From positions 1 through 60,613 of the forward strand of contig JBPOHE010000007.1 of NCBI GenBank assembly GCA_052035915.1: a stretch of 60,613 bases of DNA, given 5' to 3'. The notes beneath the pieces are model-generated. The model was not told the origin of the DNA. It did not search any database and was given only the letters and a program-made list of their open reading frames with translations. The translations under genes were made by a program, and so were the position numbers. Of this stretch, positions 6,293 through 59,616 are shown in pieces; the first letter of the stretch is position 1; every line of letters starts with the position of its first letter. This DNA is from Pseudomonadota bacterium. Lineage in GTDB: Bacteria; Pseudomonadota; Gammaproteobacteria; Chromatiales; Chromatiaceae.

Positions 6293-8425
6293 TCAGTCCA
6301 GTCGCTCCCATACCGTGAGTTCGGCCAGGCTGTGCTGGAACTTGCGTTTGGTCTCCCGGATCACGAAGGGGACATCCCTGGGTTCACCGACGAGACGGAA
6401 CCGCCGGCCGAGGATCTCGCTCATGGCGTCCAGGGTGGTCAGATTCTCCCCGTCCTTTTTGAAGCCGCCGATCCATTCGTCGCGCTCGGTGTGCTCGATC
6501 AGCCAGGTGTAGGGGGAACTGATCACCAGCAGACCGCCCGGGCGGAGACGTTCGTGGATGCCGGCCAGGAATCGGCGCGGACTGTAGAGCCGATCGATCA
6601 GATTACCAGCGAAGATAAGGTCATAGTCGGCGTAGATCGGCTTGAGATTGCAGGCATCGGCCTGGAAGAACTCGACCCTGGATTCGCTGCCCACCAGTCC
6701 CGTCTCGCTCAGGCGGCTTTCGTGGTAGGACACCAGCTCTCCCTCCTCCGGCAACACATACTGGATGTAGCCCTTGGATTTCATCTCCTCGGCGATGCGG
6801 ATGAAACGCGCCGAAAAATCCAGACCCGTAACCCGGGCGAAGCCGGTCGCCAGCTCGAAGCTGGTGCGTCCCAGGGCACAGCCTATGTCCAACGCCCGCT
6901 CCCGAGGGCGATCCCGCATCAGCTCGAGGCAGAGGCGGGCACATTCCCGCGGATAATTGGCGACGCCGAAATACTCCCGGCCCCAGTGCAACTCGCAATA
7001 CTGGGCCACCAGCACATCGGTCTCGTAATAGTCGCTACGGACCCTGACCTGATGCTCCGACTCCAGATAACGAAATCCGGCATGCTGGAAAAAATGCCGC
7101 CGGAAGGCATAGCGCGCATCCTTGGTCGCCTCGTTGCCGGTGGAGATCCAGGAACCGCCCTTGATCAGGTTGTGCTTGGTGTCGAAGGTCGGGGTGGAAA
7201 AGTCGTCGTAGAGGGGATGCACCCGGAAACCCGGAAAGCCGTTGATGGGGGTCTCGGTCCACTGCCAGACATTACCGACGACATCGTAAAAAGGTCCCTG
7301 GGGAAACTCGTCCACCGGACAGGCCGAGGCCCAGTGTTCGAGATTGATATTCCCCGGCGCGCCCCGCCAGCCGTCCACATCCGGTAGGCCGCTGAGTTCC
7401 CGCAGGCGATACCACTCCTCCTCGGTGGGCAGCCGGATCGGCTTGTCCCGGCGCGCGCCGAACCAGTTGCAGAAGGCCTTGGCCTCCAGATAGTTGACCT
7501 CAACCGGCCAATTCCAGGGCATGGGGATTTCCTCCAGCATCAGCCGCAGACGCCAATCGCCAGTCGGCTGGGGGCGCCAGAACAGGGGATGCTCGGCTTG
7601 GCGATAGCCGCGCCAGGCCCAACCTTCCTCGGTCCACCAACGGGATTCGCGATAGCCGCCATCCTCGACAAAACCCAGGTATTCGGCATTGGAGACCAAA
7701 TAACGACCGGCTCGGAAGGCCGCTATCTCCTGTTCCAGTTGGCCGTATTCGTTGTCCCAGCCGTAGAAGGGGTGATCCTTGGCCTTGCCGAGCCGGAGGA
7801 TTCCGGCGGGCACCTCGACCAAGTCATTCGGCGGTGCCTCGCCGACCTTGGGACAGACGCGCCAGAAAGGATCCGGGCGCAGCCATTCCAAGGGCAACTG
7901 CCGGATGAGCACGGAGGAGGTTTCGAGGTGGATGCGCTCGTGCTCGATACCCATCATGATGGCCCAGAACGGCGAGTCCCAATCGATGGGCAGACTCAAG
8001 GGTAATTCCCGGATGACCCGGTCCAGGGTTTGACGCACCTCTTGCCGATAGGCCCAGACCTCGGCCACCGAGGGCCAGTCGTAATGGGCCTCGTTGAGAT
8101 CGTCCCAGGACATCTCGTCCACCCCTACCGCGAAGATGGACTCGAATCTCGGGTTGATACGCTCGGACAGCCGCTTCGCCAGCACCAGTTTGTTGATAAA
8201 AAACACCGCGGTGTGACCGAGGTAGAAAATGAGCGGGTGACGCAGGAGATCCGCCTTGCGATAGTAGGCCTCATCCCTGGCCAGGGTGGCGAAGAGCCGT
8301 TCGTAGATATCGAAGCTGGCGTGGAAATAGCGGCGGATGCTTTCCCGCTTGGCGTCGGGATCTCCCGAACGCAGGTCGGGCGTATAGGCGGGTTCGAGGT
8401 CTAATGACATGATCAATTCTCGCAA
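6293..8425 (-). CDS. ovoA: 5-histidylcysteine sulfoxide synthase / 4-mercaptohistidine N1-methyltransferase (ovothiol biosynthesis)
   Basis: 710 aa with the three-part OvoA architecture. It has a DinB-like N-terminus (HPLIFYLGHTAVFFINKL), an FGE-sulfatase-like middle (GNVWQWTETP) and a C-terminal class I SAM methyltransferase (ALDIGCALGRTSFELA). Confidence 0.85.
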   Translation of the reverse strand: MRELIMSLDLEPAYTPDLRSGDPDAKRESIRRYFHASFDIYERLFATLARDEAYYRKADLLRHPLIFYLGHTAVFFINKLVLAKRLSERINPRFESIFAVGVDEMSWDDLNEAHYDWPSVAEVWAYRQEVRQTLDRVIRELPLSLPIDWDSPFWAIMMGIEHERIHLETSSVLIRQLPLEWLRPDPFWRVCPKVGEAPPNDLVEVPAGILRLGKAKDHPFYGWDNEYGQLEQEIAAFRAGRYLVSNAEYLGFVEDGGYRESRWWTEEGWAWRGYRQAEHPLFWRPQPTGDWRLRLMLEEIPMPWNWPVEVNYLEAKAFCNWFGARRDKPIRLPTEEEWYRLRELSGLPDVDGWRGAPGNINLEHWASACPVDEFPQGPFYDVVGNVWQWTETPINGFPGFRVHPLYDDFSTPTFDTKHNLIKGGSWISTGNEATKDARYAFRRHFFQHAGFRYLESEHQVRVRSDYYETDVLVAQYCELHWGREYFGVANYPRECARLCLELMRDRPRERALDIGCALGRTSFELATGFARVTGLDFSARFIRIAEEMKSKGYIQYVLPEEGELVSYHESRLSETGLVGSESRVEFFQADACNLKPIYADYDLIFAGNLIDRLYSPRRFLAGIHERLRPGGLLVISSPYTWLIEHTERDEWIGGFKKDGENLTTLDAMSEILGRRFRLVGEPRDVPFVIRETKRKFQHSLAELTVWERLD

Positions 8426-8608: not shown

Positions 8609-9604
8609 ATGCGCACCCGTCGTCTCGGTAACACGGACCTCCAGCTTTCCTGCATCGGCCTGGGAACCTGGGCCATCGGTGGTCCCTGGGACTTCGGTTG
8701 GGGGCCGCAATCGGACGAGGATTCGATCTCCACCATACGTCGGGCGCTGGACCTGGGCGTCAATTGGATCGACACCGCCCCCGTCTACGGTCTCGGGCAC
8801 GCCGAACTGGTCGTGGGCCGGGCCATCAACGGACGACGCGACAAGGTCATCATCGCCACCAAATGCGGTCTGGTGTGGGACGAATGCCCCCAGCGCAAGT
8901 TATGCGGCCGACTCAAGGCGGAAAGCATCAAGCGGGAGGCGGAAAACAGCCTGCGACGGCTGGGTATCGAGACCATCGACCTCTATCAGGTCCACTGGCC
9001 GAATCCCGAACCCGATATCGAAGAGGCTTGGTCGGCCATCGGGGAGCTGATCGCCGAGGGCAAGATCCGTTATGCCGGGGTCGCCAACTTCTCCGTGGCC
9101 CAGATGGAACGACTTCAAGCCATCCACCCCATCGCCTCCCTGCAACCGCCTTACAGCCTGCTGGATCGGGCCGTCGAGAGCGAATTGCTGCCCTATTGCG
9201 TAGCCCAGGGTATCGGCATCGTGGCCCACGGCCCCATGGCCTATGCCCTCTTGACCGGGAAGTTCAGCCACTCCTATATCGCCACCCTGCCCGCCGACGA
9301 CTGGCGCCGTCGGGGCGGTTGCTTCCAGGAACCCGAACTCAGCGCCAACCTGGCGTTCGTCGACAAGCTCAAGACCCTCGCCGAACGCCGCGGCCATCAG
9401 GTGGCCCATCTCGCCATCGCCTGGGTGCTGCGCCGACCCGAGGTGACCGCCGCCATCGTCGGCGCGCGTCGCCCCCAGCAGATCGAACAAACCCATGCCG
9501 CCGCCTCTCTGGATTGGCTGCCGGAAGATCTGGAGACCATTGAGGCCTGGCTGGCCGAGCGGGATCGGATCATCAGCACCCATATAGCCTGCTCCCCGGT
9601 GTGA
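8609..9604 (+). CDS. aldo/keto reductase
   Basis: 331 aa with typical AKR motifs: LGTWAIGG, GVNWIDTAPVYG, IDLYQVHWP. Confidence 0.9.
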   Translation: MRTRRLGNTDLQLSCIGLGTWAIGGPWDFGWGPQSDEDSISTIRRALDLGVNWIDTAPVYGLGHAELVVGRAINGRRDKVIIATKCGLVWDECPQRKLCGRLKAESIKREAENSLRRLGIETIDLYQVHWPNPEPDIEEAWSAIGELIAEGKIRYAGVANFSVAQMERLQAIHPIASLQPPYSLLDRAVESELLPYCVAQGIGIVAHGPMAYALLTGKFSHSYIATLPADDWRRRGGCFQEPELSANLAFVDKLKTLAERRGHQVAHLAIAWVLRRPEVTAAIVGARRPQQIEQTHAAASLDWLPEDLETIEAWLAERDRIISTHIACSPV

Positions 9605-9754
9605 TACCATTTCTTGATAGGTATTATCGATATTCGTAGGCTGGTGTTGAGGCGCGAAGCGCTGAAACCCAGCTTCTGAGTAGCTGGGATTCGCTTCGCT
9701 CATCGCCAGCCTACCCCATGACTTTCAGGCGGATAAACTAATAGGAAATGGTAT
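9604..9754. repeat. MITE-like repeat family A, copy 1 (151 bp)
   Basis: Perfect 10-bp terminal inverted repeats (ATACCATTTC ... GAAATGGTAT). An internal long hairpin is based on GCGAAGCGCTGAAACCCAGCT; it is partly deleted in this copy. Near-identical to 14639-14792 in the same orientation. Confidence 0.85.
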
Positions 9755-9970
9755 GAGATCCTCTTCCGATCCCTGATCAACACTGGACACCAGCACGCGA
9801 CCGGGGGTGAAGGGGAAGCTGATAACAATGTTTATGTACTAATGATATTTTGTTGAATATTTTTATGTAGCAATGCTTCTACCGCCCATGCCCGGGGCCT
9901 TTTGGGTCGATAAGCGGGTTGTCGTCGCCGGCTCGTCCTTCTCGGACTCTATCCAGCATGAGAGAACACC

Positions 9971-10372
9971 ATGAGCATCGAAGAGGAACATCAAGACGTC
10001 CTGCAGAATATCGAGTTCGTCGTCACCCAGATCTATAGACGCCATCCAACATTGACCGACTACGGCGTTCTGCGCGCCTACGAGGCCCTGGTTCAAACCT
10101 ATACCGCGGAACTCTCGGGACGTCCGCCGAAGCCGTTGATGTTACAAGGAGGGCCTGAAGGGGTGATGCTGGAGAACCTCAGAATCATCTGTGAATGGCG
10201 TCTGGGTCGGATCAACAGGCCAAACGCCGCGGGCCGGGGAGAACAGTCAGAGCCCATTGATATTCCGACCCTGATTCAATGCCTGAAAAGGCTCATCAAG
10301 TCCGTCAACAAGTGGAACAAAAGCGGCGGCCAACAAGGGTACCTGCACTTCATGACGCAATTTATCCATTGA
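9971..10372 (+). CDS. hypothetical protein (133 aa)
   Basis: Clean ORF preceded by an AT-rich stretch and followed by a perfect 18-bp palindrome (10384-10401, ACAGGCCGATCGGCCTGT). I recognise no motif. It is the only plus-strand gene in the accessory segment. Confidence 0.5.
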   Translation: MSIEEEHQDVLQNIEFVVTQIYRRHPTLTDYGVLRAYEALVQTYTAELSGRPPKPLMLQGGPEGVMLENLRIICEWRLGRINRPNAAGRGEQSEPIDIPTLIQCLKRLIKSVNKWNKSGGQQGYLHFMTQFIH

Positions 10373-10640
10373 GGGCTCGGACGACAGGCCGATCGGCCTG
10401 TGGTGGGTTGGCTTCGCTTATCAGCCTCACCAAGAGACGGCTGCCTCAGCCCTCTATACGCTGGTTCCCAAGCTCCAGCTTGGGAACCACTGCGTGGCAA
10501 GCTCTTGCTTACCGACCTTCGACATTCCCAAGGAGGACCTTGGGAACGAGCGGACCTCCTGTCATCACTGCTTGACTGTGAACAACTCCTCTTCAGGGTT
10601 CACGATGTTTGCATGTGCGATTGCCCTGTTGATGGTGGCG

Positions 10641-10692
10641 ATTAAACATGCGTGCGATTAGGCTACGCCAATCGCACCTACGGCCCTTTAAT
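10641..10692 (-). repeat. attC-like / REP-like imperfect palindrome downstream of TA cassette 1
   Basis: Minus-strand reading: TATTAAAGGGCCGTAGGTGCGATTGGCGTAGCCTAATCGCACGCATGTTTAAT. The toxin stop codon lies inside the first arm. A related copy with conserved arms and a variable centre is at about 59545-59600. Confidence 0.4.
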
Positions 10693-10972
10693 ACACCTCG
10701 TCGTGGGTGCCAATATCATGCAAAATGATGACTTCACATCCTGTTTTCTCATCGATTTCAATGGAGAAAACAATGCGGCAATCATAGCCACGGGAGCAGG
10801 CCCACAATCCCAGCAGAGCACCGCTAAGTTTATGCGTTCACGGGGCAGGCGCAAATACATCCGCCTGCATTCGCCGAAGCACCTCATCAATATAATCTTG
10901 CAACTTGGGAGTCTGTTTTCCAAATTTCCGATAGGCTCGCCGAAATCTTGGCGTGATAACCAACAGCCTCAT
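10688..10972 (-). pseudogene. RelE/YafQ-family toxin gene interrupted by an in-frame TGA (codon 45)
   Basis: Hand translation: MRLLVITPRFRRAYRKFGKQTPKLQDYIDEVLRRMQADVFAPAP*THKLSGALLGLWACSRGYDCRIVFSIEIDEKTGCEVIILHDIGTHDEVY*. The C-terminal half is the classic RelE/YafQ signature. The stop is at 10838-10840. The ATGA start/stop overlap with the antitoxin is preserved. Confidence 0.75.
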
Positions 10973-11199
10973 TCATCATCCTCAAGCGTCCGATGCAACT
11001 CGGCAATGGCCTCTTCTGCAGATTGCGCCTTGAATTGGCCATCGCGGAAAGCCGCTATTGACTTATTAGCATCGACCATGATTTCCTGCCGCCGGGTTTC
11101 AATCCGGCGCTTGCTTAGAATGTCGATCAGCATTTCTTGCTGATCTGGCGGAAGTTGCAAAACGGTATTAATGGCTTGATCCAAGGTTATGGCATTCAT
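10969..11199 (-). CDS. type II antitoxin (partner of the RelE/YafQ-like pseudogene)
   Basis: 76 aa from MNAITLDQAINTVLQLPPDQQEMLIDIL..., with an AAGGAG Shine-Dalgarno sequence 8 nt upstream. The acidic C-terminus and the 4-nt ATGA overlap with the toxin start are typical. The longer 11277 start lacks an RBS. Confidence 0.7.
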   Translation of the reverse strand: MNAITLDQAINTVLQLPPDQQEMLIDILSKRRIETRRQEIMVDANKSIAAFRDGQFKAQSAEEAIAELHRTLEDDE

Positions 11200-11303
11200 C
11201 GTTTCCACAATCTCCTTGCTTTCATTACAGCCGTAGAAGGTACGCGATGCGTACCCTACGAGGCTCTCCTGCGTCACGCATGCGTTCGGGTGGGATCATG
11301 AGT

Positions 11304-11359
11304 TCTAACGCCTGCCTCAGCCGCGAGCGTAGCGAGTCGTCTGGAGGCGCATGTTAGGA
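11304..11359 (-). repeat. attC-like recombination-site candidate
   Basis: Minus-strand reading: TCCTAAC-ATGCGCCTCCAG...CTGAGGCAGGC-GTTAGAA. This has an inverse-core-like YYTAAC and a core-like GTTAGR, with imperfectly paired inner arms. It is 56 nt long and lies between the two TA cassettes. Confidence 0.5.
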
Positions 11360-11477
11360 AATTACGTGTATTCTCTGGTTGCATTCAGCGTCGTTGGATG
11401 TTGGGTTGGCGATACGGCCGCCAACCCAACCTATGGTGCTGGGTCCGAGTGAAAGCGCAGGTTAGCTTTCAAATTCA

Positions 11478-11729
11478 TCAGTAGATTTCTCGACGATGGC
11501 CTATTGCAATAACGATCACAACTAACTGTTCGTCGTGGATTTCGTAGATGACTCTGAAATCGCCAATTCGGATTCGCCACGCATCTCTACCTGTGAGTTT
11601 CTTGCTGCCGACTGGTCTTGGATTGTGGGAAAGCGCTTTTACCTGATCAGCAATCTCTGCTCGACGGACTTTATCAATTTTTGCAAGGGACTTCTGCGCG
11701 CTTCGAGTGATTGAGATCGATTAGCTCAT
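11478..11729 (-). pseudogene. RelE/ParE-family toxin gene with TAA at codon 3
   Basis: Hand translation: MS*SISITRSAQKSLAKIDKVRRAEIADQVKALSHNPRPVGSKKLTGRDAWRIRIGDFRVIYEIHDEQLVVIVIAIGHRREIY*. This is the canonical RelE/ParE pattern (RIRIGDYRVIYEI...IGHR.EIY). The stop is at 11721-11723, and there is no downstream ATG/GTG/TTG near the N-terminus. Confidence 0.75.
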
Positions 11730-11932
11730 GAGCTGACATCAGTATCTATCTCGTTCAGTGCCTGATCAAAAGGGATTATCTCGTCGCTAGTGAGTTTAGC
11801 TTCGTCGTAAGCCTTTATGTCTTCGAGTTCCTCTATGGCGCTGAGGATTTCCCGCCATTCATTAATGGGTAAGACTACGGACTTAGGAGTCTGATTAGAG
11901 TCGACAATGTATTCTGGATGAAGAATGTTCAT
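11726..11932 (-). CDS. type II antitoxin (Phd/YefM-like by pattern)
   Basis: 68 aa: MNILHPEYIVDSNQTPKSVVLPINEWREILSAIEELEDIKAYDEAK... The ATGA overlap with the toxin start is present. Confidence 0.7.
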   Translation of the reverse strand: MNILHPEYIVDSNQTPKSVVLPINEWREILSAIEELEDIKAYDEAKLTSDEIIPFDQALNEIDTDVSS

Positions 11933-11984
11933 GGTGTGTACCTATTGTAACCACGCTTCGGATTTCGACTAGTTTAGTAGGTCG

Positions 11985-12040
11985 AAAAAACACAGTGTTG
12001 CCCGACATTTTATAGAAGATGTCGGGCACAGGTGCCCGAC
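11985..12040 (-). terminator. tandem hairpins plus T-run downstream of the two-gene operon
   Basis: On the minus strand, right after the TAG at 12041, come two hairpins. They are GTCGGGCAC-CT-GTGCCCGAC and TGCCCGACAT-cttctataaa-ATGTCGGGCA, followed by ACACTGTG-TTTTTT. Confidence 0.5.
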
Positions 12041-13159
12041 CTACCGGGCTGTCTTCACTCTATGTTTTTCGTAGGCTTCCATTTTGTATCTTTCTAAAGA
12101 CTCAATAACCAGTTTACTGACTGTGCTTCTGGTTAATCCTTCTTCATTTGCTTCTAATCTGAGCATCGAAAGATTAAGCGTCAACTCGCCCCCCGCAGAC
12201 TCATCCTTATCAGAAAACTCAAATAGTATTCTGCATGTTCCAGAGCAATTATCGCCTTCAAACTCATAATCACATTGAAGCCCGAACAATCGGATATACG
12301 GATGAATGGATTTATCACTGACGAAAAATGTCGAGTGAAGCCCCTGTCCCTTCATCTTCATGTCTTCGATCTTATCCTTCATCCACGCAATATTCTGCGG
12401 CGGGTTAGCAACGCTGTGATCTGGTGAAAAATGAATGTCCCTGGTGTCAACAAAGCGCAGCATTGAGTGACTTACGTTTTGGGTGAGATCATTCATAAAT
12501 TGTACGCGTGATTCATTCGTGAAGTCTGAATACCTGATTATTGTTACGCCGACACTTTGTTTGATGTGCCCTTCGCTTTTGAAGTGCTTTATCAAAGCAC
12601 TTGAGACTTTGTTTCCGAAGTCGATTGTTTCTGGTGCGGTATGGCTTAGCGAAATGTTTAAGGACTTACCATCGTTGCTTTTCCGTATTTCAACACGGCC
12701 CCCATGTGTGACTGTGTTTTCTCCCCAGTTCTTAACTGGATCACGTCTATCAATCTCGAAATCCATGTAGATGTGATCTGGATTATCATTTGATGCAGTA
12801 AAATTTGACATACTTGAAAGACTGAATACACCAAACTGGTCATTCAGAAGAGTCTCGTAGTCAGCCATATCTGGCAAAGACTCAAGCAAGTTGGATTCAG
12901 AATCCCAGCTAATAGTGCGAGTTTTAGATTTTGGCGATTCCTCTTTTGTCCTATAGCTCTCGCGCAAGTCCACGTACTCAAAGGGAGACAGCCCGGTCTT
13001 GATGAGAATGGGGCCTAGAACTTCCTTCTGATCTGACCCTGTAAATACCCCTCTTGCGCGCAAAACGTTTTTTAATTCGGCGTTCTTAACCTTTGTCTGG
13101 CCAATTAGCTGGCGCAAAAAATCCCTAGTAGGAAGCAAGACCTCTTCGTTGTTATTCAT
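12041..13159 (-). CDS. hypothetical protein B (372 aa), second gene of AT-rich operon
   Basis: Clean 372-aa ORF with a start ATG inside ATGAATAA, an 8-nt overlap with the upstream gene. Sampled lines are 32-50% GC, against about 63% in flanking core genes. I recognise no catalytic or nucleotide-binding motif. Confidence 0.8.
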   Translation of the reverse strand: MNNNEEVLLPTRDFLRQLIGQTKVKNAELKNVLRARGVFTGSDQKEVLGPILIKTGLSPFEYVDLRESYRTKEESPKSKTRTISWDSESNLLESLPDMADYETLLNDQFGVFSLSSMSNFTASNDNPDHIYMDFEIDRRDPVKNWGENTVTHGGRVEIRKSNDGKSLNISLSHTAPETIDFGNKVSSALIKHFKSEGHIKQSVGVTIIRYSDFTNESRVQFMNDLTQNVSHSMLRFVDTRDIHFSPDHSVANPPQNIAWMKDKIEDMKMKGQGLHSTFFVSDKSIHPYIRLFGLQCDYEFEGDNCSGTCRILFEFSDKDESAGGELTLNLSMLRLEANEEGLTRSTVSKLVIESLERYKMEAYEKHRVKTAR

Positions 13160-14102
13160 TATTCAAGCTCCTGTAGTCTGGCCGAAAGCTAGCTACTTTT
13201 ATCCGGGTAAAGATATCGCTCTCAAAACCTGTGGCAGCCCTCTTGACTGCATCACCATGACTAGACTCAACATAATTAGGAAATAGAAACAGCAACGTGC
13301 AACTCATGTCTTGAGTGTATTCTTTGGCTGCTTGGATTAGCCTGCGCAGAGAGTCTTGCGCAAAACCTTCTATGGTAGACAGACAGAAAATATCCTGATC
13401 ATGCCGGGACTGTGCCTTAATGATTAGCGGAATCAAAGGTGAGGTCAGAAATTCAAGCGGACATACCTTTCCATATCTCGATATGGTTTTGTCAACATAA
13501 CTTAGTGAAGTCTCAGGATAATAAAAGTGCAGGCGATCGGAGTCGTACTCATGTCTCAAATACTGCACGGTGTCGAATATAAAGTTTATTCTCTGATTAT
13601 CAACCACATGAAACGACTCAAAGCTCCAATCGGAATCAAGTTGTGAGTTTGCAATTTTTGATACGACATCATCATATGTTTCTTCGTTACTCGATAGCCA
13701 GAACAATACCCCGGAATCCCTACTTTTCGTTGTTCGCCCCAACAATTCCTGCTGTTGCTTTTTTAACTCTGAATGTTTGTAACACTCCAAGGTTTCGACT
13801 AAGTCCTTGGCGTGCGATTTGAAAGTCGACTTTGGATTGTTTTCGTACGGGTTTTGTGAATGCTTAACAGATATTACCGCGCTTTCGGCAGTCGAGCCTT
13901 CAAGTGGGCTTCTATAGCAGTACAAATAGTCAATTCCATGTGTTTCTCTTTTTCCAGTCTTTGACCCTTCACTGGCATGTTTGCTTGGCTTTCTACATGG
14001 CAGTTCTTGCCCAGATAAAACGCCTTCCCACCCCAATAAATGGAAGAAATTGCCAACGATATTCTCGCCAATTTCTCCAATTTTTTTAGATTTTTCACCC
14101 AT
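13152..14102 (-). CDS. hypothetical protein A (316 aa) with PD-(D/E)xK-like (Mrr/DUF4365-like) N-terminal region
   Basis: The N-terminus is KKIGEIGENIVGNFFHLLGWEGV ... THGIDYLYCYRSP ... AVISVKHS. This resembles the helix (GE..E) / beta (G-I-D) / beta (S-V-K) core of restriction-endonuclease-fold proteins (E13, D58, S78-x-K80). I recognise nothing in the C-terminal 180 aa. AT-rich. Confidence 0.8.
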   Translation of the reverse strand: MGEKSKKIGEIGENIVGNFFHLLGWEGVLSGQELPCRKPSKHASEGSKTGKRETHGIDYLYCYRSPLEGSTAESAVISVKHSQNPYENNPKSTFKSHAKDLVETLECYKHSELKKQQQELLGRTTKSRDSGVLFWLSSNEETYDDVVSKIANSQLDSDWSFESFHVVDNQRINFIFDTVQYLRHEYDSDRLHFYYPETSLSYVDKTISRYGKVCPLEFLTSPLIPLIIKAQSRHDQDIFCLSTIEGFAQDSLRRLIQAAKEYTQDMSCTLLFLFPNYVESSHGDAVKRAATGFESDIFTRIKVASFRPDYRSLNNE

Positions 14103-14180
14103 TGCAAGTTCCTTTCACCAATCTGCGGGTTGGATTTTTATGCATAACATGTAATCGACGACATCGTCTTCCTACCAAAA

Positions 14181-14198
14181 GTATCTAAATCTAGATAC
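14181..14198. promoter_or_regulatory. palindrome GTATCTA-AATC-TAGATAC about 80 nt upstream of protein A (possible operator)
   Basis: 7-bp perfect arms, seen directly in the AT-rich leader of the operon. The role is inferred only. Confidence 0.3.
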
Positions 14199-14499
14199 CA
14201 ACCCTTACCCCAATGGTCCTCCATCAGCTCCCACCCTGGATCCCAACCCCGGGGCTACGGCATTTTCGTAGCCTGACTTCCACAACCGCGGATGAGGTCG
14301 CCATATCCATCCAGCCTGATTGACCTCGTTGCGCCGATCGATCTCCCAATATTCCACCCGAGCTGTACGCCACGCAGGCCGGGCACTTTATGGGATGCCC
14401 GACATTTTCCATTGAATCCCTGGACAAGGCCAGGCTTTGGCCCAACCTTCTACATCACTCCCTAACAGCTGAGATAACCTTGAAGAGTCAGGTTTTGGC

Positions 14500-14625
14500 G
14501 TTCCCGGGCATGGGCGGTTTAGCCCGATTTTTCCTTCTCCTAGAGAGAACAATGCCCCATCATGAATGGGCATATGTTCTCTTTAGAAGAACGAAGAATG
14601 GCCGTTTGGGGCCCATGCCCGGAAC
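14500..14625. repeat. MITE-like repeat family B copy (paired TGTTCTC/GAGAACA palindromes)
   Basis: Terminal inverted repeats GTTCCCGGGCATGGGC ... GCCCATGCCCGGAAC. The core is TTCTCCTAGAGAGAACAATGCC...GCATATGTTCTCTTTAGAAGAAC. Confidence 0.7.
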
Positions 14626-14638
14626 CTGGAAGGGCCTC

Positions 14639-14792
14639 ATACCATTTCTCGATAGGTATTATCGATATTCGTAGGCTGGTGTTGAGGCGCGAAGCGCTGA
14701 AACCCAGCTTCTCAGTAGCTGGGTTTCAGCGCTTCGCTCATCGCCAGCCTACCCCATGGCTTTCAGGCGGATAAACTAATAGGAAATGGTAT
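14639..14792. repeat. MITE-like repeat family A, copy 2 (154 bp)
   Basis: Same TIRs as copy 1. It carries the full 21-bp-stem hairpin GCGAAGCGCTGAAACCCAGCT-tctcagt-AGCTGGGTTTCAGCGCTTCGC. It is in direct orientation relative to 9604-9754. Confidence 0.85.
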
Positions 14793-14861
14793 CAGCGACT
14801 AGCTCGGCCATCCTTTGCCGAGGTTCCCTGAAACACCCGAGCCCTTCCCCGCGACCAAGGC

Positions 14862-25647: not shown

Positions 25648-25727
25648 GCAGAGTAGGTCGGCAATCCTTTGCCGACACCCCTTGATCGGCATCAAATGGC
25701 GGCAAGGGGTTGCCGCCCTACGAACTC
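25648..25727 (+). repeat. REP-like repeat family C, copy 1 (about 80 bp, two short hairpins)
   Basis: GCAGAGTAGGTCGGCAATCCTTTGCCGAC...GATCGGCATCAAATGGCGGCAAGGGGTTGCCGCCCTACGA. The hairpins are GTCGGCAA-tcct-TTGCCGAC and GGCGGCAA-gggg-TTGCCGCC. Confidence 0.8.
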
Positions 25728-26415: not shown

Positions 26416-26532
26416 CCGGGCCTGGGCTGAAAAGCGCTGGTTTCTGTTCTCATTAGGAGAACAATGCGGCCTGTAGAAAGGCATTGTTCTCGATTGGAGA
26501 ACAAAAAACCGGGCCAAAGCGCCCTGGCCCGG
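26416..26532. repeat. MITE-like repeat family B copy (best-preserved)
   Basis: Ends are CCGGGCCTGGGC ... GCCCTGGCCCGG. The two palindromes are TGTTCTCATTAGGAGAACA (26445-26463) and TTGTTCTCGATTGGAGAACAA (26484-26504). It lies between convergent genes. Confidence 0.75.
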
Positions 26533-26812
26533 AAGCGTCAAAAGACGAACTGGCCGGCCATGAAGGTCGCCGCCAGGCCCGCCTGGCCGGCGGCGAACCT
26601 GATGGCTCCAACGACTCCGGCTCCGTCCCGACCTCCCAGGGCTCATCTTCCCAGGCCAGCCAGGCCTCCATCCGCTGTTGTCGCGCGTCCCTCTCCAATT
26701 GGCGCCGATCCCTGTGCGCCCCGCCCTTGCGCAGCAAGGGCGATTTGGCCGCCAGATTACGTATCTTCACCCCTTTCATACTTTCTCTCCCAAGGCCACT
26801 GAAAGCCTTCAC

Positions 26813-31107: not shown

Positions 31108-33645
31108 CTAATCTCCGCACTCGGCCGGCGTCATGGGCAGATCCCGGGTTTCGGCGATCGAGAAGGGGGCGAATACCGCCTTGTAGGGGAAGAAGCCCTC
31201 CGCCCAGGCGAAGAGGGTCACCTGGCCGTTGCCGTCCGTCGGGATATCGTCCAAGGCGTACAGACCGTCGCCACCACAACTGAACTGGCTCTGGCCGTTG
31301 GCCAGCAGCATGGCGCAGACGGGGATGGTCGTCCCCGCCAGAAACACCTTGCCCGAAAGACTTGCCTTGGGCAGGCTGCTGTGTTGAGTGGTCGTACCAC
31401 CGTCCGGCCCCTGGCAGGGTGACACCCTCATGGCCACATCGACCTGCCCGAAGGTCGTGTCTGGGGTGAACACCAGCTTATAGGGATCGAAACCATCGGC
31501 CCAAGAATACAGGGTGACCTGGTCCTGACTATCGAGGGGAATGGATTGCAAGGCGAAGCGGCCTTCCCCATCACAACTGAACTGGCTCCGGCCGTTGGCC
31601 AACACCAGGGCGCAGACAGGGATGTCGGTGCCGAACAGGGAGACGACGCCGGAGAGGTCGATCTGGGAAAAGAGACTCAGTTTGGCGACGAAGGCGTCAT
31701 CATAAGAATTGCCGTTATGCGCCCGAAGCGGAGCACCCCAGGTGGCCAGACTCCAACCGGTCACGTAGACATGACTGGTTCCCTTCAGCGCAATACCTTT
31801 GCCCGAATCGGTTTCGCTGCCGAGAAAGGTGTTCCAGAGGAGGAAGCCATTGAGGTTGAGCTGGGCGACAAAGGCATTGGGACATGGGAAGGTGTACCCA
31901 TCGCCGCAGGTTCCACCGCTATAAGGCTGGAGCGGACTGGCCCAGGTGGCGGAACTGTACCCAGTCACAGAAAGATTGCCGTTGGCGTTTATCGCGAGGC
32001 CATAGCCGAAATCGTTATGGCTGCCGCCGAGGAAGCTGTTCCAGAGCAGGGCGCCATCAGCGTCGATCTGGGCGACAAAGGCGTCGATACAAGGGTATAT
32101 TCCAGGGGCAGAGCCGCAAGCTCCGCCGCTATGCGTCCGCAACGGGCTGCCCCAGGTGGCGTCGCTACCTCCCGTCACATAGACATGGTCACTGTCGTCC
32201 AGGGCGATACCCCGACCTGAATCGTAGCCGCTGTTACCAAGAAAGGTGTTCCAGAGCAGCTCGCCATGGGCGTCGAGCTTGGCGACAAAGGCATCGTAAC
32301 CGCCGCTATGCGCCCGTAGTGGACTACCCCAGGTAGCGAAACTGTACCCGGTCACATAGATATGGCCACTGCCGTCTAGGGCGATGCCATAACCGAGGGC
32401 CCCGTCGCTGCCGCCGAGGAAGCTGTGCCAGAGCAGGGCGCCATTGGGGTCGAGCTTGGCAACAAAGGCACCGGCACCACTATGCGTCCGCACCGGGTTG
32501 CCCCAGGTGGTGCCGCTGCCTCCCGTCACATAGACATGGCCACTGCCGTCCACGGCGATACCATAGCCGAAATCGTTTTGGCTGCCGCCGAGAAAGACAT
32601 TCCAGAGCAGGGCGCCATCGGCATCGAGCCGGGCGGCAAAGGCATCGGTACAAGGGATTGGCACACGGTAACCACAATATCCGCCACCATACTCTCGCAA
32701 CGGACTACCCCAGGAAGCGTTGCTGCGACCGGTCACAAAAATATGGCCGCTGCCATCCAAGGCGACACCCTCACCTAAATCGTCGCCGCTGCCACCCAGG
32801 AAGGTGTTCCAGAGCAAGGCGCCATCGGGATCGAGCTTGGCGACAAAGGCATCGTAACCGCCGCCATGCGCCCGTAGTGGACGGCCCCAGGTGGCGTCGC
32901 TGGAACCAGCGACATAGATGTTGCCGTCGCCATCCACCGCGAGGCCATTACCAGCATCACTACCACTACCGCCCAAAAAGGTATTCCAACTCAAGGTGGG
33001 ATCGATCCACAGCGGGCGGGTCGGATCGTGCTCACCCAACGCAAAGCCCAGTTCCCGTTCGCCATGCTGGACAAAGGAGACGCTGACGGATAGACGCTGG
33101 CCGTCCACTTCCTGCCAGGCGATGGGCGCGGATTCGCTGAGGACGCCGGTATCAAAACGGATGCTCAGGCGGCCATCGGCGGTGAGGTTCAAGGACCGGT
33201 TGTAGCGCAGCCGTACCTGATTGATGTCGGCGCCTGGTTGCAGTCGGTAGAGACTTTCGGCGATACCGCCCGGCGCGGCGTGGTAGCTGAGGTCGATGCC
33301 GTCCCAGAGATTGGGGTAGCGTACTTGCGTCAGGGGCGGGGCCGGCGACTCCTGGCCGGTCGCCGCCGGGGTGTCGCTCTGGGGGATGACAGGCTGGGCG
33401 TTGAGGAATTCCACCTTGAGCCCATGATGACCGCTGGCCGTGAGTAGGTACCGAGGAGCAAAACCCAGCACATGACCACCGGCGGTAAAGGTCTGTAGTT
33501 CAGGTGTCGGCGGCGAGGTGAGCGTTGTCCTGCCCTCCGGCAAGGGGGACGTCATGGGTTCCATCCCCCCGAGACTGGCTGATCCCACCCCCACCAGGCC
33601 GAGCAGCCCGGCCAATCCAAGTCCATACCACAGCTTCAGATTCAT
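31108..33645 (-). CDS. secreted SBBP beta-propeller-repeat protein with two C-terminal Cys-containing tandem domains
   Basis: Start set at the ATG at 33645 (MNLKLWYGLGLAGLLGLVGVGSA signal; AAGGAGGAA upstream). It has about 8 repeats of WNTFLGGSGxDxGxGIAxDGSGxxYVTGxSxATWGSPLRAHxGGxDAFVAKLDxxGxLLW. The tail has two about 95-aa repeats (IPVCALVLANGRSQFSCDGEGRFAL / IPVCAMLLANGQSQFSCGGDGLYAL). Confidence 0.85.
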   Translation of the reverse strand: MNLKLWYGLGLAGLLGLVGVGSASLGGMEPMTSPLPEGRTTLTSPPTPELQTFTAGGHVLGFAPRYLLTASGHHGLKVEFLNAQPVIPQSDTPAATGQESPAPPLTQVRYPNLWDGIDLSYHAAPGGIAESLYRLQPGADINQVRLRYNRSLNLTADGRLSIRFDTGVLSESAPIAWQEVDGQRLSVSVSFVQHGERELGFALGEHDPTRPLWIDPTLSWNTFLGGSGSDAGNGLAVDGDGNIYVAGSSDATWGRPLRAHGGGYDAFVAKLDPDGALLWNTFLGGSGDDLGEGVALDGSGHIFVTGRSNASWGSPLREYGGGYCGYRVPIPCTDAFAARLDADGALLWNVFLGGSQNDFGYGIAVDGSGHVYVTGGSGTTWGNPVRTHSGAGAFVAKLDPNGALLWHSFLGGSDGALGYGIALDGSGHIYVTGYSFATWGSPLRAHSGGYDAFVAKLDAHGELLWNTFLGNSGYDSGRGIALDDSDHVYVTGGSDATWGSPLRTHSGGACGSAPGIYPCIDAFVAQIDADGALLWNSFLGGSHNDFGYGLAINANGNLSVTGYSSATWASPLQPYSGGTCGDGYTFPCPNAFVAQLNLNGFLLWNTFLGSETDSGKGIALKGTSHVYVTGWSLATWGAPLRAHNGNSYDDAFVAKLSLFSQIDLSGVVSLFGTDIPVCALVLANGRSQFSCDGEGRFALQSIPLDSQDQVTLYSWADGFDPYKLVFTPDTTFGQVDVAMRVSPCQGPDGGTTTQHSSLPKASLSGKVFLAGTTIPVCAMLLANGQSQFSCGGDGLYALDDIPTDGNGQVTLFAWAEGFFPYKAVFAPFSIAETRDLPMTPAECGD

Positions 33646-33845
33646 AGATCGTTCCTCCTTCTGTCCTTTCTGATCGTTGTCTTCCGGGAATTCCACTGGG
33701 CGACAGAGTGTATCCCAGTCCGATCGCCAGCCATCAGTGACCTCGATCAAAGAATCAACACCTTCTCGGTCGATGACTGCCGTGACCGGCAGATCGGCGG
33801 CGATTTGTTGCTGATTGCGGTTTGCCCGGACCAGCACGAGCTGGG

Positions 33846-33962
33846 CCGGGCATGGGGGCACGAGTCGGCCTATTGTTCTTTTTATGAGAACAATATATTC
33901 AAAAAATAAATTATTGTTGTTTTTAAAAGAACGGAAATGAACCTATTCGGCCCGATGCCCGG
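33846..33962. repeat. MITE-like repeat family B copy
   Basis: Ends are CCGGGCATGGGG...GATGCCCGG. The core has TTGTTCTTTTTATGAGAACAA plus an AT-rich second half-site. It lies about 200 nt upstream of the SBBP gene start. Confidence 0.65.
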
Positions 33963-34164: not shown

Positions 34165-34244
34165 GCAGAGTAGGTCGGCAATCCTTTGCCGACACTCCCT
34201 GATCGGCATCAAATGGCGGCAAGGGGTTGCCGCCCTACGAACTC
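34165..34244 (+). repeat. REP-like repeat family C, copy 2
   Basis: Near-identical to 25648-25727 and 52486-52567, in the same orientation. Confidence 0.8.
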
Positions 34245-52485: not shown

Positions 52486-52567
52486 GCAGAGTAGGTCGGC
52501 AATCCTTTGCCGACCCCCCCCCTGATCGGCATCAAATGGCGGCAAGGGGTTGCCGCCCTACGAGCTC
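52486..52567 (+). repeat. REP-like repeat family C, copy 3
   Basis: Same unit as 25648 and 34165. It is flanked by a near-direct repeat: GCTCCGGGAAGGGGACCGCGTA to the left and GCTCCGGGAAGGAAACCGCGTA to the right. Confidence 0.8.
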
Positions 52568-52666: not shown

Positions 52667-52784
52667 CCGGGCATCGACGGCCAATGGCCGATTTCCGTTC
52701 TAATACAGAGAACAATATATCAATATCTCGCGGTATTGTTCTCTAATGGAGAACAAAAACCGGCCCAACACAGCCAGGCCCGGG
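52667..52784. repeat. MITE-like repeat family B copy
   Basis: Ends are CCGGGCATCGACGG...CCAGGCCCGGG. The core is CAGAGAACAATATAT...TTGTTCTCTAATGGAGAACAA. Confidence 0.7.
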
Positions 52785-52906
52785 AGGCTCTCCCAACCAC
52801 CAGGGGCCAAATCCAAATCTGATTGGCCAGTTATTTCAGCGAGAGAGGGATGTGCCGTCACTCCCCTCGCCCGTTTGCGGGAGAGGGGAGCTGGACGGTT
52901 ACAAGA

Positions 52907-59129: not shown

Positions 59130-59260
59130 CGCCCGGTCGTTCTGGGCCTCGACTGAAAAAGGCTTGTTTTCGTTCTTTTATGAAGAACAATACCTCAATA
59201 TAACCGTTATTATTCTCTATTTGAGAACAATAACGCTTCCAAAACCGCCACCCCCGGCCC
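59130..59260. repeat. MITE-like repeat family B copy (degenerate ends)
   Basis: The core is GTTCTTTTATGAAGAACAATACC...ATTATTCTCTATTTGAGAACAATAA. The ends are less clear than in the other copies. Confidence 0.55.
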
Positions 59261-59616
59261 TCCCCGAAAAGGGAAAAAGGAAACAGATCAAAGGGAAGAA
59301 GCCAATATCCTGGCCAGACGAAAACCCCAGGGGGAAGTCCCAGCGGCGTAGGTTGGGTTGACACCGTCAACCCAACATTCCAAGCAGCGCCGGGGAGAAA
59401 TGTTGGGTTGCGCAATACGCAACCCAACCTACGATACTTGTTAGGCCATTTTCAGGTTTCATAATTTAGCTTGGTCCCTTTTCAACTTTTCCCAAACGGA
59501 TCAGCTCGCGTAGCTCCGATTAGCGACAGCGTAATCGGAGGAATGTAGCTTTCATGCGTGCGATTACACTAGGGTAATCGCACCTACGGTCCTTTGGTGG
59601 TTGCACGTGCAAGCCT

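What the first reader, a model, noticed from the sequence alone, without database searches (positions are those of the whole stretch)
9604..14792. 5-kb AT-shifted accessory segment bracketed by direct copies of a 151/154-bp hairpin MITE
Two near-identical repeat copies (9604-9754 and 14639-14792) lie in the same orientation. Each has perfect 10-bp TIRs, ATACCATTTC/GAAATGGTAT. Between them is everything that looks foreign: the hypothetical 133-aa gene, two TA cassettes and the two-gene operon. Outside them, core genes begin almost at once. The AKR stop codon overlaps the first copy, and the AmmeMemoRadiSam operon ends 70 nt after the second. This suggests either insertion into a pre-existing repeat or a segment that can be lost by recombination between the copies. 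Copy 1 carries a 3-nt deletion in one arm of the internal 21-bp-stem hairpin.
Basis: seen in the sequence. Interest (0 to 1): 0.6.

Follow-up and report, generated by a model that had tools for sequence, protein, structure and literature searches.

The report
Two independent MITE insertions flanking defence islet
The two repeats are separate insertions of a small multi-copy mobile element that happen to sit at the two edges of a strain-variable toxin-antitoxin and anti-phage (GAPS4) gene islet; they did not bring the islet in and do not mark the part of it that is exchanged between strains.

Summary
Two ~97% identical direct repeats lie at 9604-9754 and 14639-14792 and enclose DNA of 42-54% GC, against 62-66% outside. 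The proposed link between repeats and segment fails.

Each copy is a 149-nt (152-nt for copy 2) MITE with 9-bp termini TACCATTTC/GAAATGGTA. Each has its own 3-bp target duplication: TGA, the AKR stop codon, for copy 1 and TCA for copy 2. The family has at least 38 insertion sites in metagenomes of the same uncultured gammaproteobacterium. Its target is S|TNA|S and copies are 98.3% identical on average.

Two related assemblies carry the same islet genes with a precise empty site in place of copy 1. Copy 2 is present in all three assemblies. Both insertions therefore post-date the islet.

What varies between strains is an internal slot, 12051-14181. It holds GAPS4 here, an OLD/GajA-like ATPase in a second strain, and BrnT/BrnA plus a 152-aa ORF in a third. 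Its borders are a GTAGG…CCTAC hairpin module and a TATCTAAATCTAGATA palindrome, not the MITEs.

The "3-nt deletion" in copy 1 is really a strain-specific 3-nt insertion in copy 2.

With about 20-40 copies per genome, a pair within 5 kb is not surprising. This is an ordinary new member of known kinds.

The parts
9602..9604 (+). Left target-site duplication of copy 1 (TGA). It is also the AKR stop codon.
   Evidence: The empty site in L001 and L007 reads GGTG TGA GATCC. The window reads GGTG TGA [element] TGA GATCC.
9605..9753 (+). MITE copy 1: 149 nt, termini TACCATTTC…GAAATGGTA, internal GTAGG…CCTAC hairpin. It is polymorphic between strains.
   Evidence: It is absent in L001 and L007 and present in L002-L005, L009, L010 and L018.
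9754..9756 (+). Right target-site duplication of copy 1 (TGA).
9971..10372 (+). 133-aa ORF of unknown function. It is conserved in all three strains. GC3 is 0.67.
   Evidence: There are no Pfam, NCBIfam, PADLOC, PHROG or PDB hits. It is present in L001 and L018.
10373..10689 (.). Intergenic hairpin modules. They include a copy of the repeat also found at 59553-59595. A second copy of this whole module lies 3' of the OLD-like ATPase gene in L001.
   Evidence: family D9; L001 6428-6717 matches window 10398-10687 at 98%.
10690..10972 (-). YafQ/RelE-like toxin pseudogene, with an in-frame TGA at codon 45 (10838-10840).
   Evidence: L001 has a frameshift instead, and L018 has both lesions.
10969..11199 (-). 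76-aa antitoxin-like ORF that overlaps the toxin start.
   Evidence: and the gene call in L001. It has no family hit.
11478..11729 (-). ParE toxin pseudogene, with TAT to TAA at codon 3 (11721-11723). The gene is intact in L001 and L018.
   Evidence: Pfam ParE_toxin, E = 1e-14. Strain comparison (the single difference seen in an off-frame translation, read as TAT vs TAA in the toxin frame).
11726..11932 (-). RelB-like antitoxin, with a 4-nt ATGA overlap with parE.
   Evidence: Pfam RelB-like, E = 8e-8.
11969..12050 (-). GTAGG…CCTAC hairpin module that forms the left border of the variable slot. The gapS4b stop codon lies within its CCTAC. L018 has a copy after each cassette.
12041..13159 (-). 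gapS4b (372 aa).
   Evidence: NCBIfam NF047934: 383 bits against a cut-off of 300, covering profile positions 1-355 of 355. Precomputed PF26110 GAPS4b_N.
13152..14102 (-). gapS4a (316 aa), a PD-(D/E)xK-type nuclease subunit with the HGID…SVK motif.
   Evidence: NCBIfam NF047933: 349 bits against a cut-off of 270. Precomputed PF26115 PDDEXK_GAPS4. The motif matches HGxD-SxK of bioRxiv 10.1101/2025.09.07.674715.
14153..14212 (+). Recurring cassette 5' module: palindrome P1 AATCGACGACATCGTCTTC (14153-14171), palindrome P2 GTATCTAAATCTAGATAC (14181-14198), and the tail CAACCCTTACCCCA. The alleles diverge at the left edge of P2, which is the right border of the variable slot.
14213..14636 (.). Non-coding stretch conserved in all strains between the slot and copy 2. 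It contains an inverted copy of the repeat family also found at 26480, 52732 and 59206.
   Evidence: (I3, D6).
14637..14639 (+). Left target-site duplication of copy 2 (TCA).
14640..14791 (+). MITE copy 2: 152 nt here and 149 nt in the other strains. It is present at the same site in all three assemblies. In the window, a 3-nt insertion plus an A-to-T change make the inner hairpin perfect.
14792..14794 (+). Right target-site duplication of copy 2 (TCA).

Best explanation
**The repeats.** They are two independent insertions of one family of non-autonomous DNA transposon (MITE).
- The element is 149 nt long and has 9-bp terminal inverted repeats, TACCATTTC/GAAATGGTA.
- It has no coding capacity and carries a long internal GTAGG…CCTAC hairpin.
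- Inferred: a DDE transposase supplied in trans makes a 3-nt staggered cut at S|TNA|S targets, which leaves a T-N-A duplication. That signature is typical of the IS5 / PIF-Harbinger superfamily.

**Order of events.**
- Copy 2 inserted first, 70 nt beyond the Memo-AMMECR1 stop codon. It is fixed in the sampled population.
- Copy 1 inserted later, exactly on the AKR stop codon. The duplication recreates the stop, so AKR stays intact. Copy 1 is still polymorphic.
- Both went into sequence that was already contiguous, so the islet predates both.

**The enclosed DNA.** It is a small defence and toxin-antitoxin islet between two convergent core genes.
- A constant frame holds the 133-aa ORF and two decaying TA modules.
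- One exchangeable slot, 12051-14181, holds the two-gene anti-phage system GAPS4 in this strain.
- Published work describes GAPS4 as a GapS4a2-GapS4b2 complex with non-selective DNase activity triggered by DNA breaks.
- Other strains carry an OLD/GajA/AriA-type ATPase, or BrnT/BrnA plus a 152-aa ORF, in the same slot.
- Slot exchange happens at a hairpin module and a palindrome, not at the MITEs.

**The bracketing.** It is best read as coincidence, helped by the element's tolerance for non-genic sites next to accessory DNA.
For: **Shown.**
- Empty versus filled site for copy 1, with a TGA duplication.
- Copy 2 has a TCA duplication at the same site in the window, L058 and L059.
- There are 44 exact matches to the left end on 42 metagenome stretches, giving 38 distinct sites. 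Position -3 is T in 37/38, -1 is A in 38/38, -4 is S in 34/38 and +4 is S in 19/22. The duplication is perfect in 18/22 distinct complete copies.
- Mean pairwise identity is 98.3%, and 7 of 23 copies equal the consensus.
- The slot borders and the three alleles are shown by blastn and alignment.
- GAPS4 is identified by full-length NCBIfam hits above the cut-offs and by the HGxD-SxK motif.
- GAPS4-bearing contigs from five further samples are essentially identical to the window (four at 100%, one at 99.96%). They break about 30 nt into the shared border modules.
- Under random placement, the probability of at least one pair within 5.2 kb is 0.33-0.93 for 20-40 copies in a 3-5 Mb genome. Another close pair exists in L051, 865 nt apart.

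**From the literature.**
- TNA-type 3-bp duplications occur in the PIF/Harbinger-IS5 superfamily (PMC4482050).
- GAPS4 mechanism.
Against: - No parent transposase with matching termini was found in 484 kb of held DNA from this population.
- The only IS5-family transposase remnant seen has a different terminus. The superfamily assignment therefore rests on the duplication alone.
- No empty site for copy 2 was found. Its status as a simple insertion rests on the matching duplication.
- Of about 16 non-coding S-TNA-S sites in the AKR-Memo interval, the two occupied are the outermost. That is roughly 1 in 120 if sites were equally usable, a post-hoc figure.
- Low-GC flanks are about 5 times more frequent next to MITE copies than in background tiles, 8/58 against 5/184. 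Some non-random attraction to islet edges is therefore not excluded.
- No island-free relative exists in the data, so whether the whole 5-kb interval is an acquisition could not be tested.
Confidence: 0.8

Rival explanations
1. Composite transposon. The two direct MITE copies act together, using the left end of copy 1 and the right end of copy 2, and moved the 5-kb segment into the AKR-Memo gap as one unit.
For: Each copy has both termini, so the outer ends form a valid pair. All the AT-shifted DNA lies between them.
Against: - The outer flanks differ, TGA against TCA, while each copy has its own matched duplication.
- L001 and L007 have the islet without copy 1.
- The unit was not seen at any other locus.
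Confidence: 0.03
2. The segment inserted into a pre-existing single MITE copy, which now appears on both sides of it.
For: The two copies are direct, near-identical, and lie at the two edges of the segment.
Against: - Such an event would split one element into two partial copies, or duplicate it without separate target duplications.
- Both copies are full length, with complete termini and different duplications of their own.
- The empty site for copy 1 joins the AKR stop codon directly to islet sequence.
Confidence: 0.02
3. The pair matters because it is a deletion substrate. RecA-dependent recombination between the two direct copies removes the islet, leaving AKR, one hybrid MITE, then Memo. 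This would make the defence islet dispensable and reversible.
For: - The copies are direct repeats of 149 and 152 nt, with a 62-bp uninterrupted identity block.
- Both toxins are already inactivated in this strain, so losing the TA modules should not be toxic.
Against: - No deletion allele was seen in any assembly. L018, L058, L059 and L144 read through a MITE copy into islet sequence.
- The variation actually observed is slot exchange, not whole-islet loss.
- Short-read contigs that break inside the MITE cannot detect the hybrid copy.
Confidence: 0.1
4. Non-random targeting. The MITE, or its transposase, prefers the borders of accessory cassette regions, for example through local DNA structure or proximity to the P1-P2 module. 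The bracketing would then reflect site preference, not coincidence.
For: - Flanks below 55% GC are 8/58 for MITE copies against 5/184 for background tiles.
- MITE copies lie 0.4-2.5 kb from the P1-P2 module at three separate loci: the window, L026 and L054.
- The two occupied sites are the outermost of about 16 candidates.
Against: - The loci in hand were selected because they contain a MITE, so co-occurrence with other repeats is biased.
- Preference for gene 3' ends or stop codons was tested against random S-TNA-S sites and was not significant: 10/35 against 175/679 within 100 nt, and 4/35 against 46/679 on a stop codon, p = 0.30.
- Most copies (50 of 58 flanks) lie in ordinary-GC DNA.
Confidence: 0.2

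Closest known systems
Tourist-like MITEs and IS5 / PIF-Harbinger (PHIS) superfamily elements
   Same: - A short non-coding element with terminal inverted repeats.
- A 3-bp duplication of a T-N-A target with S on each side. The eukaryotic NuwaII group has the target C|TNA|G (PMC4482050).
- Many near-identical copies.
   Different: - No autonomous partner with matching termini was found.
- The termini begin TACC rather than the GA/GG ends I recall for IS5-family groups (from memory, not tested).
- The one IS5-family transposase remnant in the same population has unrelated ends.
Bacterial MITEs such as Correia elements (Neisseria), RUP and ERIC (recalled from memory)
   Same: - Size of about 100-160 bp, with inverted termini and strong hairpin potential.
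- Intergenic location, often just past gene ends.
- Insertion polymorphism between strains.
   Different: - As I recall, Correia and RUP duplicate TA, whereas this element duplicates T-N-A.
- There is no sequence similarity to any annotated plasmid or phage record, and no Rfam family matches.
GAPS4 anti-phage system (Mahata et al., bioRxiv 10.1101/2023.03.28.534373 and 10.1101/2025.09.07.674715)
   Same: - A two-gene gapS4a-gapS4b operon.
- Full-length NCBIfam hits above the cut-offs, and the HGxD-SxK motif.
   Different: - The system was found there in Vibrio GMT islands and in E. coli.
- Here it sits in a small chromosomal slot of an uncultured Chromatiales-like gammaproteobacterium, with no GMT genes nearby.
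- Its activity was not tested here.
Defence hotspots between conserved core genes, and integron-like cassette arrays
   Same: - Alternative defence and TA cargo at one fixed chromosomal position between core genes.
- Co-oriented small cassettes, each followed by a structured repeat.
- TA modules among the cassettes.
   Different: - There is no integrase in the interval.
- The hairpin modules do not fit the attC R''/R' consensus (RYYYAAC / GTTRRRY) on inspection.
- The borders are a GTAGG…CCTAC hairpin and a TATCTAAATCTAGATA palindrome, and no recombinase is known for them.
REP / REPIN elements (recalled from memory: a GTAG head followed by a palindrome, mobilised by RAYT transposases)
   Same: The MITE's inner hairpin and the islet's intergenic modules all start with GTAGG and end with CCTAC. 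So does the repeat family at 25648, 34165 and 52488.
   Different: - The stem sequences differ from module to module.
- No RAYT gene was looked for.
- The MITE itself moves with terminal inverted repeats and a target duplication, which REPs lack.

Membership tests
MITE (non-autonomous DDE-type transposon) | Short, with no coding capacity | tested here: met
   149 nt, with no ORF of its own.
MITE (non-autonomous DDE-type transposon) | Terminal inverted repeats | tested here: met
   A perfect 9-bp pair, TACCATTTC/GAAATGGTA, in all complete copies retrieved through the left-end probe and the GAAATGGTA right-end search. Longer variants (L038, L056) end in GAATTGGTA.
MITE (non-autonomous DDE-type transposon) | A target-site duplication flanking each copy | tested here: met
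   A 3-bp T-N-A duplication is perfect in 18 of 22 distinct complete copies.
MITE (non-autonomous DDE-type transposon) | Many near-identical copies at unrelated loci | tested here: met
   38 distinct sites, with mean identity 98.3%.
MITE (non-autonomous DDE-type transposon) | Empty and filled alleles of the same site | tested here: met
   Copy 1 is absent in L001 and L007, with a precise empty site.
MITE (non-autonomous DDE-type transposon) | An autonomous element with matching termini in the same host | tested here: inconclusive
   None was found in 484 kb of held DNA. The whole genome is not available, and the genome collection has no match.
IS5 family / PIF-Harbinger superfamily derivative | A 3-bp duplication of a T-N-A-type target | tested here: met
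   The target is S|TNA|S. For comparison see PMC4482050.
IS5 family / PIF-Harbinger superfamily derivative | Termini shared with a transposase-encoding member of the family | tested here: not met
   The IS5-family transposase remnant in L054, L027 and L043 ends in …GTGAACACGGCC, which is unlike the MITE termini.
IS5 family / PIF-Harbinger superfamily derivative | Mobilisation by a DDE transposase of that family | not testable with these tools
   This needs a transposition assay or the identified parent element.
Composite transposon | One target duplication flanking the whole unit | tested here: not met
   The outer flanks are TGA and TCA, and each copy has its own duplication.
Composite transposon | The same unit present at another locus | tested here: not met
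   All contigs carrying islet genes map to this one locus.
GAPS4 defence system | Adjacent gapS4a and gapS4b genes | tested here: met
   NF047933 at 349 bits (cut-off 270) and NF047934 at 383 bits (cut-off 300), with overlapping genes.
GAPS4 defence system | The HGxD…SxK active-site motif in GapS4a | tested here: met
   HGID…SVK in the N-terminal region.
GAPS4 defence system | Protection against phage | not testable with these tools
   This needs a plaque assay.
Type II toxin-antitoxin modules | An adjacent or overlapping small toxin and antitoxin gene pair with family hits | tested here: met
   ParE_toxin (E = 1e-14), RelB-like (E = 8e-8), and a weak YafQ_toxin hit (23.6 bits, below the cut-off of 30).
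Type II toxin-antitoxin modules | An intact toxin reading frame | tested here: not met
   Both toxins have in-frame stops in the window. ParE is intact in L001 and L018.
Integron cassette array (considered) | An integron integrase next to the array, and attC sites with the R''/R' cores | tested here: not met
   No integrase ORF lies between AKR and Memo. By inspection, the hairpin modules lack the RYYYAAC / GTTRRRY cores, except for one 6/7 + 6/7 pair at 11303-11362. No attC covariance model was available.

The most novel reading that the evidence does not exclude
The GTAGG…CCTAC hairpin module at the 3' side and the P1-P2 palindrome module at the 5' side (AATCGACGACAYCGTC…GTATCTAAATNTAGATAC…CCTTACCCCA) could be the recombination sites of an undescribed cassette-exchange system. 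Such a system would swap defence and TA cassettes at several chromosomal slots in this lineage. It would be integron-like in outcome but would lack an integron integrase or attC sites.

The same 5' module sits upstream of unrelated low-GC cassettes at two or more other loci, and the three alleles at this locus diverge exactly at its edge.
Probability: 0.1. Interest if true: 0.65.

Novelty: new member of a known kind. Interest (0 to 1): 0.25.

Why it matters
Mainly as a caution. A pair of direct repeats around foreign-looking DNA does not make a mobile unit. Target duplications and one empty site were enough here to separate two unrelated events.

On the positive side, the work does three things:
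- It documents a recently active T-N-A-duplicating MITE family in an uncultured Chromatiales-like gammaproteobacterium.
- It places a GAPS4 system in a compact, strain-variable defence slot outside the Vibrio and E. coli contexts where GAPS4 was described.
- It flags recurrent border motifs that might explain how such slots exchange cargo.

Tried and rejected
- **Stop-codon or 3'-end targeting.** Six to nine of the 38 insertions sit exactly on the stop codon of a long ORF. Against random non-genic S-TNA-S sites this is not significant: 4/35 against 46/679, p = 0.30. Within 100 nt of a 3' end it is 10/35 against 175/679.
- **Parent IS.**
  - The two long-range terminus pairs (L031, L036) were followed up. 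L036 encloses ordinary genes and no transposase; the L031 partner looks like the right end of a diverged family variant.
  - A generic search for an inverted repeat plus a T-N-A duplication, and an all-against-all search for dispersed 0.4-3.5 kb repeats, found nothing.
  - The IS5-family remnant has different ends.
  - The 342-aa DDE_Tnp_1 ORF in L054 is a different element.
- **Second empty/filled pair (L051 against L031).** The flanks agree only in part. This is probably a paralogous repeat module, so it was not counted.
- **Genome collection.** The MITE probe found nothing in 185k species representatives. PurA gave only 75% identity to a Chromatiales MAG.
- **Island-free comparator.**
  - The 84% Memo orthologue diverges immediately after its stop codon, and its contigs end there.
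  - The nearest AKR homologue is 70% identical and lies in a different neighbourhood.
- **Known families.**
  - Rfam gave only a sub-threshold mir-577 hairpin hit.
  - Promoter-like matches inside the MITE are no more frequent than in shuffled sequence.
  - The annotated plasmid and phage collections gave no match.
- **Library coverage of GAPS4.** The local Pfam copy and PADLOC 2023 do not recognise GAPS4. NCBIfam does.
- **Integron reading.** The attC core motifs are not present on inspection.

Full report
**Observation.**
- The window is a complete 60,613-nt metagenomic contig.
- Two direct repeats lie at 9604-9754 and 14639-14792. They differ by four substitutions and one 3-nt indel, and similarity stops abruptly at both ends.
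- A 41-nt probe finds only these two copies in the window, with none expected by chance.
- Both fold into a long hairpin as single-stranded DNA: -50.4 kcal/mol (z = -11) and -36.2 kcal/mol (z = -6.5).
- GC falls from 62-66% outside to 42-52% inside.
- GC3 is 0.41-0.52 for the TA and two-gene-operon ORFs and 0.67 for the 133-aa ORF, against 0.75-0.82 for AKR, OvoA-like, Memo-AMMECR1 and the radical-SAM gene.

**What the repeat is.**
- The exact AKR protein occurs on many metagenome contigs.
- In two of them, L001 (GCA_009612975.1) and L007 (SRR31893854), the AKR stop codon is followed directly by the islet's left-hand sequence. They read GGTG-TGA-GATCC, where the window reads GGTG-TGA-[TACCATTTC…GAAATGGTA]-TGA-GATCC.
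- The element is therefore 149 nt (9605-9753), with 9-bp inverted termini and a 3-bp target duplication. Here the duplicated triplet is the AKR stop codon, so AKR keeps its reading frame.
- Copy 2 (14640-14791) is flanked by TCA on both sides.

**Family-wide test.**
- A 25-nt left-end probe found nothing in 185,579 species-representative genomes.
- It found 44 matches on 42 stretches of three metagenome assemblies.
- These collapse to 38 distinct insertion sites.
- Position -3 is T in 37/38 and -1 is A in 38/38. Position -4 is G or C in 34/38, and +4 is G or C in 19/22.
- 18 of 22 distinct complete copies have a perfect T-N-A duplication (TAA, TGA, TTA or TCA).
- Copies average 98.3% pairwise identity, and 7 of 23 equal the consensus. 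This points to recent activity.
- Longer variants (~185 and ~210 nt) share the left end and have a slightly different right end, …GGAATTGGTA.
- The element has no Rfam family and no match in annotated plasmid or phage records.
- These features meet the definition of a MITE.
- A 3-bp T-N-A duplication is the signature of the IS5 / PIF-Harbinger superfamily (PMC4482050; the IS5 subgroup details are from my memory).
- No transposase-bearing partner with these termini was found in 484 kb of DNA from the population.
- The one IS5-family transposase remnant present, in L054, L027 and L043, has unrelated ends.
- The superfamily assignment is therefore an inference, not a demonstrated membership.

**Polarity of the indel.**
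- The consensus is the 149-nt form.
- Copy 2 is 149 nt at the same site in two other assemblies, L058 and L059.
- The window's copy 2 has thus gained 3 nt. It also carries an A-to-T change that L058 shares. Together these make its inner stem perfect.
- Copy 1 did not lose 3 nt.

**Order of events.**
- Copy 2 is present, with the same TCA duplication, in the window, in WBZP01 (L058) and in Ga0268298 (L059 and L018).
- Copy 1 is present in the window, in L018 and in several Logan contigs, and absent in L001 and L007.
- The WBZP01 population therefore has the islet and copy 2 but lacks copy 1.
- Each copy has its own intact duplication, so each entered sequence that was already contiguous.
- This excludes insertion of the segment into a pre-existing repeat. 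It also excludes delivery as a composite transposon, because the outer flanks differ (TGA against TCA).

**What the enclosed DNA is.**
- Pfam identifies a ParE toxin with a RelB-like antitoxin. It also gives a weak YafQ-like toxin hit next to a 76-aa partner.
- NCBIfam identifies the two-gene operon as GAPS4. GapS4a scores 349 bits against a cut-off of 270, and GapS4b scores 383 against 300. Both hits are full length.
- GapS4a carries HGID…SVK, the published non-canonical PD-(D/E)xK motif HGxD-SxK.
- GAPS4 has been shown to protect against phages. It is described as a GapS4a2-GapS4b2 complex with non-selective DNase activity triggered by DNA breaks (bioRxiv 10.1101/2023.03.28.534373 and 10.1101/2025.09.07.674715).
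- The 133-aa ORF has no hit in any library.

**What actually varies.**
- Comparison with L018, L001 and L058 shows 98-99% identity across 9750-12050 and from 14182 onwards. Between those points the sequence is unrelated.
- The slot 12051-14181 holds GAPS4 in the window.
- In WBZP01 it holds a 591-aa AAA_15/AAA_21 ATPase that hits Old, GajA and AriA models.
- In Ga0268298 it holds BrnT, a BrnA-like ORF and a 152-aa ORF.
- The left border is the end of a GTAGG…CCTAC hairpin module, and the gapS4b stop codon lies in its CCTAC.
- The right border is the left edge of the palindrome GTATCTAAATCTAGATAC. L018 has five or six tandem copies of that palindrome.
- GAPS4-bearing contigs from five more samples are essentially identical to the window (four at 100%, one at 99.96%). 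They break about 30 nt into these border modules, as expected if the slot is polymorphic in those populations.
- The MITEs are not the borders of the exchangeable unit.

**Is the bracketing more than chance?**
- Each metagenome assembly shows about 21-22 sites, which is a lower bound.
- For 20-40 copies in 3-5 Mb, the probability of at least one pair within 5.2 kb under uniform placement is 0.33-0.93.
- Another pair lies 865 nt apart in L051, and two contigs carry two or three copies each.
- Against pure chance, the two occupied sites are the outermost of about 16 non-coding S-TNA-S sites in the interval (post hoc).
- Also against pure chance, flanks below 55% GC are commoner next to MITE copies, 8/58 against 5/184.
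- A preference for gene 3' ends or stop codons was tested against random candidate sites and was not significant.
- I conclude that the arrangement is mostly coincidence, with a possible mild bias towards accessory, non-coding-rich DNA.

**Limits.**
- The host is an uncultured gammaproteobacterium. Its best PurA match is 75%, to a Chromatiales MAG.
- The only closer relative, with an 84% identical Memo protein, diverges right after the Memo stop codon.
- The nearest AKR homologue is 70% identical and lies in another neighbourhood.
- Whether the whole interval is an acquisition relative to an ancestor could therefore not be tested.
- Recombination between the copies could delete the islet, since they share a 62-bp identical block. 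No such allele was seen, and short-read contigs could not reveal it.

**Verdict.** This is a genuine MITE family, previously undescribed as far as these tools show, next to a known defence system in a small variable slot. These are ordinary biology and new members of known kinds. The only lead with real novelty potential is the recurring P1-P2 and hairpin border architecture of the cassette slots, which remains unexplained.

Noticed in passing
window 10838-10840 and 11721-11723; L001 4934-5219; L018 2037-2322: Both toxin genes are broken in the window: the YafQ-like toxin has TGA at codon 45, and ParE has TAT to TAA at codon 3. The YafQ-like toxin is broken in all three strains but by different lesions: nonsense only in the window, frameshift only in L001, and both in L018. 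ParE is intact in the other two strains.
   Followed up: yes
window 14153-14260; L026 8632-8710; L054 2530-2676 (- strand); L001 8725-8743; L018 4527-4628: A ~130-nt module recurs on the 5' side of unrelated low-GC cassettes at several loci. It consists of palindrome P1, palindrome P2 and a conserved tail. The alleles of the window's slot diverge exactly at P2, and L018 has tandem P2-like units. It could be an operator and promoter or a recombination site.
   Followed up: partly
window 10398-10687, 11230-11260, 11300-11441, 11969-12050, 25648-25727, 34165-34244, 52488-52567; L001 6294-6717: Many intergenic hairpins begin with GTAGG and end with CCTAC, which is REP/REPIN-like, but their stems differ. 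The MITE's inner hairpin has the same heads. Whole intergenic modules of the islet are reused as separators next to other cassettes in L001 and L018.
   Followed up: partly
window 14640-14791, compared with L058 and L059: The window's copy 2 has a strain-specific 3-nt insertion. Together with an A-to-T change that L058 also carries, it turns an interrupted stem into a perfect 21-bp inner stem, as if one arm had been corrected against the other.
   Followed up: yes
L054 67-172, L027 81-186, L043 1-77: These stretches encode the C-terminus (NKLKQFRRVATRYEKLKANFLA…) of an IS5-family transposase, with three different downstream flanks, so the IS has at least 3 copies. In L054 and L027 the MITE sits inside that transposase gene at the identical position although the downstream flanks differ. 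A MITE-carrying IS copy may itself have been moved, or the assemblies may be chimeric.
   Followed up: partly
L054 203-1231: A 342-aa ORF with a weak DDE_Tnp_1 hit (28 bits) lies directly after the IS5-family remnant. It is a second, different transposase in the same junkyard.
   Followed up: partly
L018 1084-1204 (between window 9849 and 9858): The Ga0268298 strain has an extra ~121-nt element with 20-bp perfect inverted termini, GCTCTTCCTGCGTTTCGGAC…GTCCGAAACGCAGGAAGAGC, upstream of the 133-aa gene. It looks like a second, unrelated MITE-like insertion at this locus.
   Followed up: no
window 14493-14556 (inverted), 26480-26536, 52732-52788, 59206-59262; also L031 ~7620-7720, and seen in translated ORFs near the MITE in L036 and L047: Another short repeat family, with the hairpins TTGTTCTC…GAGAACAA and CCGGGCC…GGCCCGG, is dispersed in the window. 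It often lies near MITE copies.
   Followed up: no
L056 2104-2313; L038 1729-1913; L031 ~7900-7938: Longer variants of the MITE (~185 and ~210 nt) have extra sequence before a right end that reads …GGAATTGGTA. They may be closer to the unknown parent element.
   Followed up: partly
window 31816-32952: Five or six tandem repeats of ~174-210 nt, 61-77% identical, lie inside a 917-aa ORF (31108-33861, - strand). This looks like a repeat-domain protein.
   Followed up: no
L047 9581-11107: A 508-aa P-loop protein lies in a 50%-GC flank 0.3 kb from another MITE copy. Several other copies also have core-like GC on one side and low GC on the other.
   Followed up: no
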